Shown in pieces: positions 2,528 through 64,000 of a DNA stretch of 64,000 bases. A program made the position numbers and the translations under genes. This stretch comes from Octopus vulgaris (taxonomy: Eukaryota). Numbering within the stretch: position 1 is the stretch's first letter; every line of letters begins with the position of its first letter. Below the pieces are notes generated by a model. That model had not been told where the DNA came from. It saw nothing but the letters and a program-made list of their open reading frames with translations, and did not search any database. The stretch covers positions 15,438,001 to 15,502,000 of the forward strand of contig OX597829.1 in the NCBI GenBank assembly GCA_951406725.2, given 5' to 3'.

Positions 2528-3168
2528 CTGTGTTTGTACCCCCAACATTGCTTGACAACCGATGCTGGTGTGTTTACGTCCCCGTAACTTATCGGTTCGG
2601 CAAAATAGACCGATAGAATAAGTACTAGGCTTCCAAAGACTAAGCCCTGGGGTCGATTTCCTCGACTAAAAGGCGGTGCTTCAGCATGGCCGCAGTCAAA
2701 ATGACTGAAACAAGTAAAAGAGTAAAAAGAGAGTTTGCAGTTTGGAGCTGGTTTGACAACTGAGCACAGAATTATTCATAAAGTTCTGAACATGCGCAAA
2801 ATTTGTGCAAAGTTTGTTCTCGTTCCCATCCTGGTAACCAACTATATGACAGTGGTGGGCATCAAATATATCCCTCACTGTCCGTACAGTCCAGTCATTG
2901 CTCCCTGTGACCTTAGGTTGTTCCCCAAGCTAAAGGAGAACCTCGGAGGCAGTTGTGTTGAAGACATTGAGAAGATGAAGTAGGTTGTGAGAGGTGTCCG
3001 GGATACCTTCACTTCGGTGAAATGACAAGGGGCCTTAACAAAGTGGCTGGACCTCCACAACAAGTGCATTGAAGTCAGACGATCCTACTTTGAAAGACGA
3101 TATAGTTTTGTACTTCTTTTAAATTAATATCTCTTGAAAAAGTTTCAAAATTTCTGGAATGCATCTAG
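1858..3168 (+). mobile_element. Second mariner element, internally deleted and split by a SINE
   Basis: ORF 2061 reads EARYAINF...LFRWHKRFKSGREE. ORF 2735 reads HKVLNMRKICAKFV...HCPYSPVIAPCDLRLFPKLKENL, continuing to KWLDLHNKCIE...YFE. Shared TIR core CATTCCAGAA (~1867) / TTCTGGAATG (~3152). Confidence 0.85.
2303..2733 (+). mobile_element. SINE family A, full length (tRNA-like head, internal microsatellite, CR1-like tail)
   Basis: A-box GTGGCTGTGTGGT, B-box GGTTCAGTCCC, internal (TA)(TG)n and a 3' GGCCGCAGTCAAAATGACTGAAACAAGTAAAAGAG tail. About eight copies in the window. Confidence 0.9.
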
Positions 3169-3189
3169 ATAATAAAAAACAAATTCACA

Positions 3190-4190
3190 TTTTAAACTCG
3201 AGAAAAGGCACACATAATTTTACTGTGAAGCCTACAGATTGTATGTGTAACGTATTCGTTTCCGGCTGGTTTTTGCTTCTAATAACATAAGCTTATCCAG
3301 ATTGTAACTTAGGCATTTTATTATAAAACCAATTGCACCTATCATTATTATTATTGTTGCTATAAACGTGAATTTATAATCTATGTATTGGGGCCGGCGA
3401 TTTCGGAGCAGTTATTAATAGTTATTCTCTTTTCTTTTGATTTTCAAAGAAATATTCACATCATGATATCTATATCGGTACGTACTTTTTCTTGTGAGAT
3501 CCAAACAGCATCCGGCCTGTTATATCTACAACTTGACATCAATTTTGATGGGAATATTTACCTAATAACCCTTGCATTGATTTTTGCGTATGTATTAAAT
3601 AACAGCGGAGGGTTCTCTATATTTATTCTACAACAATTTTTTTTTCCAAATGGAATTTTACACAGTTTTTACCGCAGTGTCGTGTCGCATAGAGAGGTAG
3701 TGCCTTCATGATATCATGGAGCAGTTGCTGATCACATGCGCAATGTCTTCCACAGAAATATGGCACGATCTACATTTTCAGTTGCATCTTAGAAGCCCAA
3801 GGACTTTACTGTCCCTTTTCTTTATTGGGTATTTATGGGCAATTTCCTATTCTTGGATTGCAAGTGCATAGATTCGAAGTGTGATTTAATGGTCAAGAGT
3901 CCAAGAGAGACTGCACTTCATGTTGATGCTAATGTCTTCTTCAAGTCTTTCAAAATATACCCATACATAGTCTTCTTTTTTTTTTTCTCATCCCCGGTAT
4001 GCTAAGCATTTCTCAGCAAGATCTTCTTTCGCATATGCAAGTCCAGCTGTTTTGGGGTTGTATAGGAGGAAAAGAGTGCTTCCTGAAGAGCTTACTACTG
4101 ACACACAGGATGTTGTTCTCTTCGATTTTCTACACTGTTTATGTATTTATTTTTACTTCTGCTGTTTAGCAGGTGCTGTCTGAGAAATGT
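3190..4190 (-). mobile_element. R4/Dong-like LINE 3' fragment (zinc knuckle plus REL)
   Basis: Minus strand reads CRSCHISVEDIAHVISNCSMIS*RHYLSMRHD (CCHC knuckle plus RHD), then YNRPDAVW (RPD catalytic motif), then IIMIGAIG. Confidence 0.8.
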
Positions 4191-4361
4191 ATGTATATAT
4201 GCATGAACGTTTGTATGTATGTATATATATATATATATATATACACACGCACATACACACACATATATACATATATATATATATATACATGCATGGATAC
4301 ATACATACATAAGTACGTACGTATGTATATATACATGCGTGCAATATATATATACGCACAT

Positions 4362-4421
<60 letters not shown>

Positions 4422-4545
4422 GCATACAGACATACTACGTACGTACGTACGTATGTATGTATGTATGTATGTATGTATGTATGTATGTATGTATGTGTGT
4501 ATGTATGTATATATGCATGGGTGCATGTATATGTATTTATGTATG
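4190..4545. repeat. Compound (TA)n/(CA)n/(TATG)n microsatellite
   Basis: Seen directly in the sequence. Confidence 0.95.
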
Positions 4546-5299
4546 TCGTCCGAAAATTTAACTGAGATCCATATATTTTATCAAAGACTGAAATATATAT
4601 AAATAGAAAGTCGAATGTTTACAAAATGTCTGCTGTTTGAAAAGAAAGATAAAAATTTAGTAACTTAGCAACATTACTGACTTCTATCTTCACCCTCGAC
4701 ATAATCAATAGCTGTCTTAATTTGTAATATTTAATTTTTTTTTCATTCAAGTAATCGCAATGAAATTATGATCCTATCAATATAGTATGGGATAATATCT
4801 AATTATATAACTTTATTTTATTTTATCTATATGTTTGTGTATTATATATTTATATATATGTATTTCTTTCATTTATTTATTTGATAACATATGGAAGTAG
4901 CTATGACGAGCCACTTTGCTATGAGGTGAATAAAATACAAATGTTGAAAAGCTACAAAAGCTGCAATCATTTATTGAGAATGACTATTCTGAAATATAGA
5001 TTTATTAAGACATAATGTTGTTAAATGTTTAACCTTTGCTGTTTCTTGCAATACGTTTATATATTTAGAAATAATATGAATAGCATCTTAATTTTCAGCT
5101 GCTGTGTTAACAGTTTCAGCAGTAGTATCTCAGCTATTCATTCGATGTGTAGTACTATCTGTAAAAGTAGTGGAGATTTTTGAGGCAGTTTAAACCAGTA
5201 TTAGATGCAACATATTAGATATGTTGTAGTATGATGTTCACGCATTCTGTCACCGTTCGAATCTTATAAGGGTCTACTTTTATATTTCGTAATCTTTAT

Positions 5300-5557
5300 C
5301 TTTTTATTTTGTATTTGTTTCAGTCATCTGACTGCTGCTATGCTGGGTACCTTAAAGAATTAGTAGTCGAATGCATCGATGTCAGTACTTTTCTTTTAAG
5401 CCTGGTACATATTCTGTCGGTTCTTTTACCAAACTGCTAAGTCTTGGGTAAGTAAACAAACCAACAACGATTGTCGAGCGGTGGTGGAGGACAAACATAG
5501 TCGCAAAAATACATACACACACACACACATACACACAACACACACACACACACACAT
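5300..5557 (-). mobile_element. SINE A, diverged 3' half
   Basis: Reverse-complement match to 2520-2733 (TTGTTTCAGTCATCTGACTGC...GACAAACA). Confidence 0.75.
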
Positions 5558-5874
5558 ATAGTCTAATGATGATGAATAGAAAATCAGTTGTTCAGGGTTG
5601 CATCGAGCTGTGCCGATATAATGTAAGATAAATATAATAACAGTAACAATAATTCTTGGATTGAATTTATAACCATTTAATGCATCGCTACGCGCGTTTC
5701 CACAAATCGCACGTCTCTTGAGATCATAGTCCGTATTCCTGAGATGATTATAAGTACGTATGTATATAAGTAGGACGGGCTTCCTTCAGTTTCCTTCTAC
5801 TGACAAAGCTTTTGTTGGGCCGAAGCTTCTTACCATGCAACAGCGCCAAATTGAAGAAAAGAAAATAACGCTAA

Positions 5875-6219
5875 AGCCTAAGGCCGACCAAAGCCTTGTG
5901 AATAGATTTGGTAGGCGGAAACTGAAAGAAGCACATCATATGTATGTGAGTATATATGTGTGTGCGTATGTGTGTGTGGTATGTGTGTGTGTGTATTTAT
6001 GAGTGTGTGTGTCTTTGTGTCTATATTTGTCTCCCTCACCTCCATCGCTTGACAACCGATGATTATGTCCCCGAAACTTAGCGGTTCGACAAAAAGATGC
6101 CGATAGAATAAGTACTAGGCTTACAAAAGATAAGTCCTGGGATCGATTTCTTCGACTAAAGGTAGTGCTCTAGCATGGCCTCAGTCAATTGACTGAAATG
6201 TGTAAAAGAGTAGAAGAGA
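5875..6219 (+). mobile_element. SINE A, 5'-truncated; small inverted SINE A piece at 5772-5826
   Basis: GGCCGACCAAAGCCTTGTG...CAGTCAATTGACTGAAA matches 2410-2733. Confidence 0.85.
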
Positions 6220-6359
6220 TTAATGGAACTTAAATTTCAGCCGTACACATTTTTGATCTCTGTCTAATTAAGACTATTCTATAATCAACTTAGTGGGATC
6301 TTCCTTGCTTGCATGAGATATTGTTGTCACGTGGCTGAAACACTGTAAGGTTGTGAGGG

Positions 6360-6545
6360 AAACCTCTTGAGCTGCTAGAAATAGCACCCGAATATCCCTT
6401 AGAGTACACACTAGCGCCTAAAACAATACAGAGAGAATCGCGGAAATTGATATAAAAAATATATATCTGGAAATAAAGACATGATGGTTATGGCTAGATT
6501 GCTTTAAGTTTCAGCCCTAATTAGAAACTATATAACAAAGACAAG
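6360..6545. repeat. Old degenerate interspersed repeat (GCTAGAAATAGC core)
   Basis: Loosely similar segments occur at about 12870-12920, 15925-16090, 17490-17550 and 29720-29910. Similarity judged by eye only. Confidence 0.4.
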
Positions 6546-6639
6546 AAGAACAAAAGTAAAAGTAAAGAAGTGGAACAAATCAATGAGCGTTTTAAACAAT
6601 AGAAGTAGTACCACAAACACCAAAGGGACTATTTAAATA

Positions 6640-6836
6640 TGTGCGTATGTGTGTGTATAGCCGTTACGTGAGTATGTATGTATGTATGTATGTATGTATG
6701 TATGTATGTGTGTATGTGTATGTATGTATATATATGTATGTGTGTATGTGTGTGTATGCTTGTACATACATACATCTACGTATATACATACATATATGTA
6801 TGTACGTGCGTATGCTTGTACATACATGTATGTATG

Positions 6837-6894
<58 letters not shown>

Positions 6895-6900
6895 TATGGA
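6640..6900. repeat. (TATG)n/(TA)n microsatellite
   Basis: Seen directly in the sequence. Confidence 0.95.
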
Positions 6901-6949
6901 CGTGCGTATGCTTCTAGTTTGTCTTCTCTTTAATCAATAATACCTACTC

Positions 6950-7560
6950 CATGACTTACTAAATATAAATGCCCACAAGCTGATTGCATAAAAGAAGTTT
7001 GCAGCGCTCAAATTGGATTTTGGAAGCTAACAGACACCTAACCTTTTTAGAGATCTTGGAGAGTTCTAGGCAACGCTCGCTCCGTAGGAGTAGAATTAGG
7101 TCGTACGCTTTTCTATATTTGATCCACGTCACGCATAAATTTTCAGATCTTCCCTGTAAGTTCCCAAGGTCACCTGTTTAATCAATAACTACTCTTCTGT
7201 TCCTCTCTTCTTTTTTTGACAGATTTTCCGTTCCTCATATATTAGGTATTTCTCGTGTAGGTTTTGATAAATATGTCTCAAAGTTTATTCCAATTAGGAG
7301 CTCCTACGTAATTGATGCACGCGTAATTAATTGATAATTTGAGGCACGTTTCCTTACAATTTGTCTTATGCAGGTTCTTTCTTTTATTAGTCACAGCGGA
7401 CTTCCTTATTGAATATGTATTGTTAATTTTCACAGAGACTTGCAAACCATATCAACCAGGAACCATGGACAAGATCTGGTTCTGTTGTTTCTCATTTTTG
7501 TAATTTTAAAAATTACTGTTGTGTACTTGTCTTCCTTATGGTAACAATTTTCGCTGTAAT
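6950..7560 (-). mobile_element. R4/Dong-like LINE RT fragment
   Basis: Minus strand reads RGTEE*LLI...RRSENLCVTWIKYRKAYDLI...CLEL, compared with the consensus-like GTKDQLLIDK...NL.MAWIDY.KAYD. Confidence 0.65.
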
Positions 7561-25105: not shown

Positions 25106-26145
25106 AGCAACAACAATACAATTTACAAGAACAAACAGATCAACCACACCACCGACGATACTCGTTACTACTTACTTGTTTTTGTGGCAGCGCTAAGTCG
25201 AGGGTGGAGTATGGTTGAGCCTGTTTCGACAAACCATGTTCCTAACGCATTTTCACTACATCCGATGGTCGTCCCATACGCTCAAGCAGGTAAAGTAATG
25301 CATCTGCTTCCGGCCCAAAAAATCCAGCTTGCAAATTTAACAAATGTCCCACTGGGGAAGCATAGGCGTCAACAGCTTAACAATATTCCTTAGAATCATC
25401 ATCGCCATCATCCCTAACACCAAAGCCAACTCAGTAAATACTACCGTTACTCTAACCCAATACCTTTTAAATAACCAACTGGCTCCAACATTTAAAAGAA
25501 TCAGCATGATAGCTATATCTGTAGCTACATATGGTGTATGTCAACACAAAGGAGTGCCCTTTAGGGTAGAATGTGGAACTTTTATAGCTCAAGTCAGAAC
25601 TGTAAGGTGCTAAGTGTCCACGAACCTGGTAAGCCTTCAACTAACTCTACTCTCACATTACTTCCTGCCACCTCATTTCTTCACAGTTTCATCTAGCCAT
25701 TTTCATTCTTACATCCATAGGAATACGATAATGTTCTTTTCTAGAACTATTGTTTTGCAACATTTTTGTTGAGGATAACTGCTTATGACCTCCTTTGTTG
25801 GATTTACACACAATTCAAGATGTCTAGAGAGAAGACATCAAGTGGAATAAAATGCATTTGTGTGAAAAAGAAGCATAAAGGGAAGGAGGAAACATCAGCC
25901 ACATTGCTAAAACATTGAAGCTTTTAATGTTTTCGGTGAGAACAACAGATGATAACAAAGAGAGTACTTAAATGAAGTGTTCAAGAAGCTATCCTGTTAA
26001 CTGCTCGGATCTTATTTTTCTTTATAAACCCAATGTGATGCTGAAAATGGATCGACTTTTGGGTGTATAGAGTAAGTTTAATATTCGTCGTAATGTAATG
26101 TAATAAGTACAATGGTACTTAAAATCTCAAAATGTTTGTATCACT

Positions 26146-26432
26146 TATTGTTGTATTTCGGAATGGTCATTTTGCCAGTTTAGCCAATAAAAACACACGC
26201 ACTATATGTTTGGTGTTACTTTGCTTCAGTGTTATTTATTTTTTACATTAAACTTGATCTTATTTCGGCCAGAGTTCTTTCGTCACACTCCTGTGACCGC
26301 ATCAGTGGTCCTTTGCTTTCTTCTTTCTTATTTGTGTGTCTCTCCTTACTAACCGTCAACCATTTTGTATTTCTCTAAGTGTTTCAACACACGATTTCAT
26401 ATAAAAAATCTTGCACAACAAATACATAAACA
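26146..26432 (-). mobile_element. 287-bp non-coding insertion with 11-bp TSD carrying a hammerhead ribozyme fold (retrozyme or PLE-pLTR-like)
   Basis: TSD TTTGTATCACT at 26135-26145 and 26433-26443. It interrupts the Tigger-like sequence and has an internal hammerhead fold with a downstream AATAAA. Confidence 0.8.
26267..26311 (-). ncRNA. Type-I hammerhead ribozyme-like motif (variant core)
   Basis: Minus strand: GGACCA-CUGAUGC-G-GUCACA[GGAG]UGUGAC-GAAA-G[AA]C-UC-UGGCC. Perfect 6-bp stem II, minimal stem III, stem I GG(A)CCA/UGGCC. Confidence 0.65.
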
Positions 26433-27025
26433 TTTGTATCACTATTTGCAGAAAAAGAAGGCCAAAATTCTAATGAAAAACCCTTCTTAACTAGTAAAGA
26501 AAGATTTGAGTTAGAGATAAGAAAGTATTAAGTTTGAACAACATAAAAATCACTGGTGAAGCTGCCGCGAATTATACTGGGTAGCTTAAGGAAATTACTA
26601 GAGCAGGAATCCAGCGTTGATGAAACGTTTCTGGTCGTGTGTGCTTATTAGACCTGTTGTTTCTCGAGAAGAAAAGTCAACAACAGGTTTTAAACTTAGA
26701 AAAATCGTCTGACGCATCTTGGATGATATGCCGCTGGTAGTTTGAAATTAAAGCCTTACAAGTGTAGTATTCGGAACATCAAATTATTTTCAAGGGTGTC
26801 ACAAAGTTTGATGTTGAAATAAGATGACATGGAGGACCCTTTCCGAAAAGCGGTTTGTAACCAACATTTTCTTCTTTCTTACCTGTTGCAGAAAGATGCA
26901 ATACCAGACATATTTCCGACTAAATGTTGTTTCTTTAAGACAATACACCAAACTATATGGCGAACTTGAATGAACTTCCTGATAATGTGAAAATAGAATG
27001 TGTCACCAAGAATACAACTTCTTTG

Positions 27026-63129: not shown

Positions 63130-63790
63130 TTGAATTTGGTATTTCTGCAAACTTCTATATGATCACTCAATGGAATTCTCCTTCATTCCAGTTGTCTTAT
63201 CGGCTGTTTATATAGAATCCTACAGAGAAATAAAAAATGAGCAACTCAAAATGGCCTTTATCACCAGAGCTATAAATTAGCGCTGAAAGAGAACACGCTT
63301 GCTTTTACAGAAAAGGTATAGGAAGAAATGGTATAACTATGGGCACAATAGCGTCACTTAGCTTTGCTAACTTAGTGATTGTTTATTTAAAAATGTGAAA
63401 TCATAGCAAGAAGTATTGAGAACATTTGTTCAACGTTTTAAAATCTATGTTATAGAGAAATAGTAACCCTTCTTGATGGGTATTATATATCTTGAGCCAA
63501 ATCAAATGATGAACTTCATATATTTTACAACATTTTGAGCAAGTTTTATCCATCCAATGAATTTACATCAGAAACTAGTCAAAGTAACGTTCTTACAAAC
63601 TTTCACTCATCAAACGGAACGTTCTTCTGAATTGTAAGGCACGACATACTTGTAGAACAGATGACCTAAAAATCCGATAAATTAAACTATATCAACCTAG
63701 AGGCTTTCGACATCTTCATTAACAACTCCTGGGAGTTAACAAACAAAGAGTTTTAAAATGTAAAGGAATAGCGTTTATCACAACTTAAGA
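63130..63790 (+). mobile_element. Penelope-like element RT fragment, decayed
   Basis: Reads GITMGTIASLSFANLVIVYL (compare PLE GTAMGT..AP.YANL.M..LE), then ELHIFYNILSKFYPSNEFTSETS (compare L..F...LN..HP.I.FT.E.S). Confidence 0.65.
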
Positions 63791-64000
63791 CGCTGAGGAA
63801 AATTTGAAAAAAATATTATTGTTCGTCTCCACACATTACTCTTGAATGATTAACTTGTTCACTACCATACAAGCAAATCTATCAATCCTATTTCGAAGTC
63901 CCAAAATAAAGGGAAAATGTAGTCGATGGAAATTGACTACATATCGCTCACTTTATTAGTATTTGCTTTGTATAGTAATAATGATTTTTCACGTTAGTAG

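What the first reader, a model, noticed from the sequence alone, without database searches (positions are those of the whole stretch)
26135..26443. Small TSD-flanked non-coding mobile element carrying a variant hammerhead ribozyme and a poly(A) signal
Seen: an exact 11-bp duplication (TTTGTATCACT) brackets 287 bp that interrupt a Tigger-like transposase, so this is a discrete insertion. Its minus strand folds as a type-I hammerhead: GGACCA-CUGAUGC-G-GUCACA[GGAG]UGUGAC-GAAA-G[AA]C-UC-UGGCC. AAUAAA follows (26240-26235), then a GU-rich tract. Known: hammerheads with a minimal helix III are typical of Penelope-like element pseudo-LTRs and of non-autonomous retrozymes, and some cleave as dimers. 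Unusual: the core has C where A9 is normally invariant plus an extra G, helix III is not palindromic, and the element has no tRNA head or ORF. Inference: it belongs to a ribozyme-bearing retrozyme-like family, possibly mobilised by PLE RT (a PLE fossil lies at 63130-63790).
Basis: partly seen in the sequence, partly recalled or inferred. Interest (0 to 1): 0.8.

Follow-up and report, generated by a model that had tools for sequence, protein, structure and literature searches.

The report
Penelope retrotransposon stub, mutated hammerhead core
The 287-base insert is a truncated end-piece of an abundant Penelope-like jumping gene rather than a new kind of element, and the one unusual point is that this family kept multiplying after a normally invariant base of its self-cutting RNA motif changed, which likely weakened the cut.

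Summary
Observation confirmed; interpretation mostly not. The 11-bp duplication and the empty site in paralogues of a Tc5/DDE (Tigger-like) fossil are real. The insert is not a retrozyme. It is the last 229 bp (pLTR) of an autonomous Penelope-like element plus its 52-bp 'tail', inverted. It holds the first codons of the element's 1309-aa RT + GIY-YIG ORF, and its internal junction is unique in the genome. The family has 7410 exact 3'-end matches, and 43 of 44 two-armed insertions carry the tail on one arm only, the published PLE signature. The 'extra G' is normal for PLE hammerheads. C9 is real and derived: older subfamilies have canonical A9 (221 exact matches), while C9 (3004) is fixed in younger ones, including the near-identical copies with intact ORFs. 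Whether C9 still cleaves is untested. Side finding: the RT and 118 relatives carry a ~65-70 aa insert at the telomerase IFD position, which the papers I read do not report for C-terminal-endonuclease PLEs. The scan has reported PLE stubs and variant-core PLE hammerheads on other DNA. New variant of a known kind.

The parts
26135..26145 (+). left target-site duplication (11 bp)
   Evidence: empty site in 3 of 7 paralogues
26146..26374 (-). main arm: last 229 bp of the Penelope-like element (pLTR core), 5'-truncated, ending at the first of the family's two 3' end points
   Evidence: 93% to both pLTRs of full-length L049; 3 differences in 227 positions from its subfamily's commonest bases
26267..26311 (-). 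type-I minimal hammerhead motif; C9 at 26299 (older copies A), extra G at 26298, predicted cut between 26272 and 26271
26235..26240 (-). AAUAAA hexamer; not the template end
   Evidence: copies end about 89 or 145 nt downstream; 4 such hexamers in 681 nt of AT-rich 3'UTR plus core
26147..26170 (-). start codon and codons 1-8 of the element's ORF, lying inside the pLTR
   Evidence: ORF of L049 starts inside the pLTR
26375..26379 (.). 5-bp junction between the two arms, unique in the genome
   Evidence: 1 match (itself) at <=1 mismatch
26380..26432 (+). inverted second arm, reduced to the PLE 'tail' (about codons 10-26 of the ORF)
   Evidence: 92% to L049:3099-3150
26433..26443 (+). right target-site duplication (11 bp)
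25800..26134 (+). left part of the decayed Tigger/pogo-like host repeat (boundary approximate)
   Evidence: aligns to paralogues
26444..26860 (+). right part of the decayed Tigger/pogo-like host repeat (boundary approximate)
   Evidence: 49 matches at 65-85% incl. self; paralogue L071 hits HTH_Tnp_Tc5 and DDE_1

Best explanation
The insert is a 5'-truncated, partly inverted end-piece of an autonomous Penelope-like retrotransposon, likely made by the element's own RT and GIY-YIG endonuclease, and its hammerhead carries a derived A9-to-C core change that likely lowers self-cleavage without having stopped the family from spreading. Shown: the full unit is pLTR - 1309-aa ORF - pLTR with a period of about 4.6 kb. 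The window holds the last 229 bp on one strand and the 52-bp tail on the other, between 11-bp duplications. Inferred: the endonuclease made a staggered cut. Both target ends primed reverse transcription on a read-through RNA, one at the pLTR end and one about 55 nt further on at the tail end. Both cDNAs stopped early and were joined. Shown: A9 marks the older subfamilies, and C9 is fixed in the younger ones, including the near-identical copies with intact ORFs, which also changed the cleavage-site base from C17 to U17. Inferred: efficient hammerhead cleavage is not needed for this element to retrotranspose. The window copy is an inactive stub with no ORF of its own.
For: Longer copies run upstream into an RT (YVDD) + CxxC linker + GIY-YIG frame. 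tblastn lists open frames up to 1312 aa. In 12 stretches taken for their long ORFs, all 31 hammerhead matches are C9 and all 30 complete ones are U17. The RT model (pLDDT 95) matches telomerase RTs best (Foldseek E 3e-9; VIA Z 16.9). Among 102 arms chosen by a 3' anchor outside the ribozyme, 3' ends cluster at reference positions 795-799 (52) and 848-859 (40). 43 of 44 two-armed insertions have the tail on exactly one arm; one of the 43 is cut by the locus end. This matches the one-sided tail in PMC8557442 and the two RT start sites in PMC11167929. Exact 30-mer counts: C9 3004, A9 221, T9 61, G9 4. Mean private divergence by subfamily: 2.56% (24 of 28 A9), 2.29% (12 of 12 A9, by definition), 1.49% (25 of 26 C9; the window copy's group), 1.31% (39 of 45 C9), 0.14% (55 of 55 C9). 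A more distant relative (L173, EN 82% identical) has A9. 1315 exact copies of the C9+U17 form. In vitro, catalytic hammerhead mutants did not affect insertion by the anole PLE (PMC11167929), and Naiads amplify without canonical hammerheads (PMC8557442).
Against: No cleavage assay exists for this motif. That A9 substitution impairs cleavage is recalled knowledge (sheared A9-G12 pair); my searches gave no measured A9C rate. All other core positions and the stems are unchanged across subfamilies (1 shared-variant column of 35 in core plus stems against 10 of 143 outside, Fisher p 0.69), which neither shows nor excludes selection. Deep branches of the tree are weakly supported and the bootstrap had not settled. 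Most A9 copies were picked by an exact A9 pattern, so their numbers are not a random sample; among 68 anchor-picked arms covering the site there were 8 A9, 57 C9 and 3 T9. Five A9 copies sit in the younger S4 group (reversion or recombination). 'Active today' is inferred from near-identity and open ORFs only.
Confidence: 0.88

Rival explanations
1. The C9 hammerhead is still a working, perhaps down-tuned, ribozyme that cleaves as a dimer or with help from the element's protein, and it processes read-through transcripts of tandem arrays.
For: Ten other core bases and all stem pairs are unchanged from the oldest to the youngest subfamily. Natural core variants can retain some activity (PMC3088659). 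Tandem arrays put two or three motifs on one RNA (L051). U17 still fits the NUH rule.
Against: A9 is part of the consensus core (PMC3088659). The swapped helix III would hold two A-A mismatches (duplex +1.4 kcal/mol), though the A9 ancestor shares this. Even canonical PLE minimal hammerheads cleave poorly (PMC4209133). The family spans only a few percent divergence, so lack of further change is weak evidence.
Confidence: 0.3
2. The motif is kept for a non-catalytic role, such as a binding site for the RT or part of the pLTR promoter or 5'UTR, so position 9 is free to change while the stems are kept.
For: The motif lies about 135 nt upstream of the start codon and of the RT start sites. Changes shared by many copies fall at 9 and 17, not in the stems.
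Against: No statistical excess of conservation: mismatch rates are 1.47% in the core, 1.61% in the stems and 1.5% in the flanks without diagnostic columns; p 0.69 for shared variants.
Confidence: 0.25
3. The 287-bp unit is a member of an independent non-autonomous retrozyme-like family mobilised in trans.
For: Short copies are common: 30 of 102 arms start within about 55 nt after, or 25 nt before, the window copy's start. One other short junction recurs 7 times. Short tandem repeats of the core exist (L065, L066). A preprint argues that animal retrozymes derive from PLE pLTRs (10.64898/2026.07.22.740005).
Against: This junction is single-copy. 5' ends form a continuum up into the ORF (15 of 102 arms reach it). 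The unit is not tandem, contains ORF codons, and obeys the one-sided tail rule of the autonomous element.
Confidence: 0.03

Closest known systems
C-terminal EN+ Penelope-like elements with a CX2-5CxxC linker (Neptune/Nematis type; PMC8557442)
   Same: pLTR-ORF-pLTR tandems, 5' truncation, inverted arm, one-sided tail, (TA)n targets, RT + linker + GIY-YIG, hammerhead in the pLTR. The short spacer after CxxC resembles the Nematis rows of Fig. S2.
   Different: RT3-to-RT4 span is 148 aa, against about 78-80 aa in the Penelope and nematode rows of Fig. S1 (counted by hand). The tail is about 55 bp rather than 30-40. There is an Asn-rich stretch (32% N, residues 240-510) before the RT.
Minimal hammerheads of metazoan PLEs (PMC4209133)
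   Same: Type I, long helix II (6 bp), 5-bp helix I, extra nucleotide between 9 and 10.1, G10.1-C11.1, minimal helix III.
   Different: C at position 9 in most copies. Loop 3 (AA) is not self-complementary. A9 variants are not mentioned in the parts I read (1-2 of 4; one of three supplements could not be searched).
PAc, Poseidon element of the green anole (PMC11167929)
   Same: Two internal RT start sites bounding the tail, which lies in the start of the ORF; the hammerhead was dispensable for insertion in vitro.
   Different: Different clade. The PAc hammerhead overlaps the start codon and is catalytically active; here it lies upstream and has a changed core.
Non-LTR retrozymes (10.64898/2026.07.22.740005; PMC7229834 seen as search listing only)
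   Same: Short, carries a type-I hammerhead, related to PLE pLTRs.
   Different: Not a tandem repeat, junction single-copy, includes ORF codons and an inverted tail.

Membership tests
Penelope-like elements, C-terminal EN+ | Single ORF with telomerase-like RT followed by GIY-YIG endonuclease in full-length family members | tested here: met
   P0002, 1309 aa; RVT_1 and GIY-YIG hits, both below Pfam's cut-off; best fold matches are telomerase RTs
Penelope-like elements, C-terminal EN+ | pLTRs formed by partial tandems | tested here: met
   core repeated on both sides of the ORF with a period of about 4.6 kb; three units in L051
Penelope-like elements, C-terminal EN+ | Inverted 5'-truncated arm and a tail on one side only | tested here: met
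   43 of 44 two-armed insertions; the window copy has the same layout
Penelope-like elements, C-terminal EN+ | Hammerhead motif in the pLTR | tested here: met
   canonical core in the A9 subfamilies, C9 variant in the younger ones
Nematis clade | CX2-5CxxC linker with short spacer before GIY-YIG | tested here: met
   P0002 and 105 of 110 aligned sequences with that region against Fig. S2 rows
Nematis clade | No insertion between RT3 and RT4 (as in canonical PLEs) | tested here: not met
   span 135-154 aa in 119 of 119 sequences against about 80 aa in the nematode rows of Fig. S1
Nematis / Neptune clades | Placement in an RT phylogeny with reference elements | not testable with these tools
   no reference PLE sequences were available from a tool
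Naiad/Chlamys | N-terminal GIY-YIG | tested here: not met
   the endonuclease is C-terminal
Minimal PLE hammerhead | Core C3 U4 G5 A6 N7 G8 A9 G12 A13 A14 A15.1 U16.1 H17 | tested here: not met
   all present except A9, which is C in the window copy; met in 221 exact A9 copies
Minimal PLE hammerhead | Extra nucleotide between 9 and 10.1, G10.1-C11.1, long helix II, short helix I | tested here: met
   features from PMC4209133
Minimal PLE hammerhead | Self-cleavage as dimer | not testable with these tools
   needs an assay; only contigs were available, which cannot show RNA ends
Non-LTR retrozymes | Tandem repeats of a short unit, each with a complete hammerhead, propagated as that unit | tested here: not met
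   single unit, unique junction
Non-LTR retrozymes | Circular RNA form | not testable with these tools
   no raw RNA reads offered

The most novel reading that the evidence does not exclude
The parent element belongs to an undescribed, widespread clade of C-terminal-endonuclease Penelope-like elements whose RT carries a conserved, telomerase-length insertion in the fingers, and its octopus lineage lost hammerhead catalysis through A9-to-C yet went on to its largest burst: a natural experiment showing that PLE ribozymes are dispensable passengers in vivo.
Probability: 0.3. Interest if true: 0.55.

Novelty: new variant of a known kind. Interest (0 to 1): 0.33.

Why it matters
The stub itself is ordinary PLE debris. 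The family is useful because the function of PLE hammerheads is stated to be unclear (PMC8557442), and this genome holds natural, dated versions side by side: A9/C17 (old), C9/C17 (middle) and C9/U17 (young, with intact ORFs). Three short RNAs assayed together would show whether a lineage that amplified to thousands of copies had lost cleavage. It also warns that descriptor searches requiring CUGANGA miss most motifs of such a family. The long RT3-RT4 insert bears on how PLE and telomerase RTs are related, if the clade proves undescribed.

Tried and rejected
Rfam scan: no hammerhead model at E<=10. Folding z-score not significant. Preferential conservation of core and stems among copies: not seen; this is expected for neutral decay after insertion in a young family, so it does not refute the motif. 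No compensatory stem changes were found within the family; older relatives show a one-sided 10.2 U-to-C change that breaks a pair. Expression: no RNA holder on record was listed; four runs laid as contigs cannot show ends or levels. They do show both bases at position 9, with A as 13-29% of depth in runs labelled as four organisms. Poly(A) signal as template end: rejected. The 63130-63790 fossil as mobiliser: no tblastn match; its translation shows only decayed Penelope-type motifs by eye, and I obtained no Pfam result for it. Full-length P0002 gave no Pfam hit; its parts did, weakly. Paper searches for a measured or reported A9C variant found nothing (passages; supplement search, one file not searchable). 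Lünse et al. (PMC5785218), the most likely place for such variants, was not held, so prior description cannot be excluded. The structural aligners gave ranges only, so I did not show that the RT insert superposes on the telomerase IFD.

Full report
Observation. The 11-mer TTTGTATCACT occurs exactly twice in the window, at 26135-26145 and 26433-26443, against 0.04 expected. The flanks belong to an old repeat with 49 matches in the genome. With the insert removed in a script, 3 of 7 paralogues align across the site; the other 4 did not span it. Paralogue L071 encodes HTH_Tnp_Tc5 and DDE_1 above Pfam's cut-offs, so the target is a Tigger/pogo-like fossil. Rfam gives no hammerhead hit and the fold is no more stable than shuffles.

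What it is. The window lies in a 2.8-Gb genome; a stretch of the family's RT is 100% identical to a protein that NCBI names as Octopus vulgaris. The insert matches a large repeat family in two separate pieces: 26146-26374 and 26380-26431, the second usually on the opposite strand in other copies. Longer copies continue upstream through an AT-rich 3'UTR into a frame with YVDD, a CxxC linker and a GIY-YIG domain. A protein search lists open frames of up to 1312 aa (109 matches scored of 9399 candidates). In L049 the order is pLTR core (2870-3096), tail (3099-3150), ORF (3072-7001, 1309 aa), next pLTR. The ORF therefore starts inside the pLTR, and the 'tail' is codons about 10-26. The window insert is the last 229 bp of a unit on the minus strand, a 5-bp junction, and the tail on the plus strand. 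The junction matches only itself in the genome at up to one mismatch. A 20-mer from the 3' end has 7410 exact matches.

How it was made. I took the 102 arms found in loci L075-L144, which were picked in genome order from the first 80 or so of the 100 listed matches to that 3' anchor, outside the ribozyme. Their 3' ends fall in two clusters about 55 nt apart, and their 5' ends form a continuum; 15 of 102 reach the ORF. Of 44 two-armed insertions (these loci plus L047-L064), 43 have the tail on exactly one arm; one of them is cut by the locus end and the exception has a partial tail. Most sit in (TA)n. This is the published PLE signature: inverted truncated arm and one-sided tail (PMC8557442, passages; PMC3846280, passages), with the tail lying between two RT start sites (PMC11167929, passages). 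The priming model is inferred from those papers. The AAUAAA lies about 89 and 145 nt upstream of the two ends, so it does not set the template end; its use in other transcripts is not excluded.

The ribozyme. [quoted passage not shown] Position 9 is the real departure. Exact 30-mer counts are C 3004, A 221, T 61 and G 4; A far exceeds the other transversion, so it is a lineage state. Sorting 166 arms (after dropping 7 duplicate loci) by diagnostic columns gives a ladder of private divergence: 2.56% and 2.29% for the A9-dominated groups, 1.49% for the window copy's C9 group, 1.31%, and 0.14% for the youngest, which is C9 in 55 of 55 and U17 in 55 of 55. The tree (120 rows, most youngest copies left out at random) fits this order but has weak deep support. 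Relatives with an 82%-identical endonuclease have A9 (that search required A9, so it shows presence, not exclusivity). All 31 motif matches in 12 long-ORF stretches are C9, and the C9+U17 form has 1315 exact copies. Contigs from four runs labelled as four organisms show A at 13-29% of depth and C for most of the rest, so the change is not peculiar to this assembly. Against a strong functional reading: core, stems and flanks decay at the same rate (1.47, 1.61, 1.5%), and shared variants show no significant avoidance of the motif (p 0.69). That A9 matters for catalysis is recalled; PMC3088659 (passages) treats it as consensus core and shows that some core variants keep low activity. My searches for A9C found nothing, but Lünse et al. 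was not held and one supplement of PMC4209133 could not be searched. I put reduced or lost cleavage at about 60-65%.

The parent's RT. The span from motif RT3 to RT4 is 148 aa in P0002 and 135-154 aa in all 119 aligned sequences (P0002 plus 118 of the 120 listed homologues; the identical octopus protein and one chimeric host protein left out; 189 found in all), with conserved residues inside the insert. Counted by hand from Fig. S1 of PMC8557442, the span is about 78-80 aa in Penelope and nematode elements, about 104 in a Naiad and about 135 in human TERT. That paper says canonical PLEs lack the IFD, and a search for other mentions found one further paper, seen as a listing only. The model is confident (pLDDT 95) and matches telomerases best, as any PLE RT would be expected to; homology of the insert to the IFD is not shown. 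The endonuclease linker is Nematis-like. Clade placement could not be tested. The Asn-rich stretch has a precedent in rotifer PLEs.

Comparison and verdict. It works like, and is a member of, the C-terminal EN+ Penelope-like elements; it fails the retrozyme test. The preprint 10.64898/2026.07.22.740005 (part 1 of 5 read) links retrozymes to pLTRs, which explains the resemblance. The fossil at 63130-63790 has no match to this ORF. Earlier scan notes on other genomes describe the same kind of stub and other variant cores; none matched this sequence, and I did not test them. The stub is ordinary; the fixed core change in an amplifying lineage and the long RT insert are modest, testable novelties. 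Interest 0.33.

Noticed in passing
L049:5343-5786 (P0002 residues 758-905) and homologues P0004-P0122: Conserved insert of about 65-70 aa between RT motifs 3 and 4, at the telomerase IFD position, in a C-terminal-endonuclease PLE; present in 119 of 119 aligned sequences.
   Followed up: partly
L166, L171, L175, L183, L186, L187, L190, L192, L194 (around position 1500) and many rows: A second hammerhead family in this genome with a canonical core, a 5-bp helix II and an apparently longer helix III; often in inverted pairs a few hundred bases apart, so probably another PLE.
   Followed up: no
L065:1150-1890 and L066:960-1930: Three head-to-tail short units (about 250 and 340 bp), each with an A9 hammerhead and no ORF: retrozyme-like arrays arising locally from this PLE.
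   Followed up: no
L195-L201 (also L002, L003, L016): One short inverted-arm junction with 5-bp microhomology recurs at 7 loci: repeated template switching or a small non-autonomous subfamily.
   Followed up: partly
L049:3807-4679, minus strand: An antisense open frame of about 290 codons over the Asn-rich region in every intact copy; probably a by-product of the repeat composition.
   Followed up: no
L049:2938 in runs X1 and X19: A U4-to-C variant of the hammerhead core at 10-14% of depth in two runs and almost absent in the other two.
   Followed up: no
window 63130-63990, minus strand: Decayed Penelope-type RT motifs by eye, with no detectable match to this family's ORF.
   Followed up: partly
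protein P0095: An Octopus vulgaris predicted protein with F-box/leucine-rich-repeat domains that includes about 150 aa 98% identical to this RT: exon capture or a gene-model artefact.
   Followed up: no
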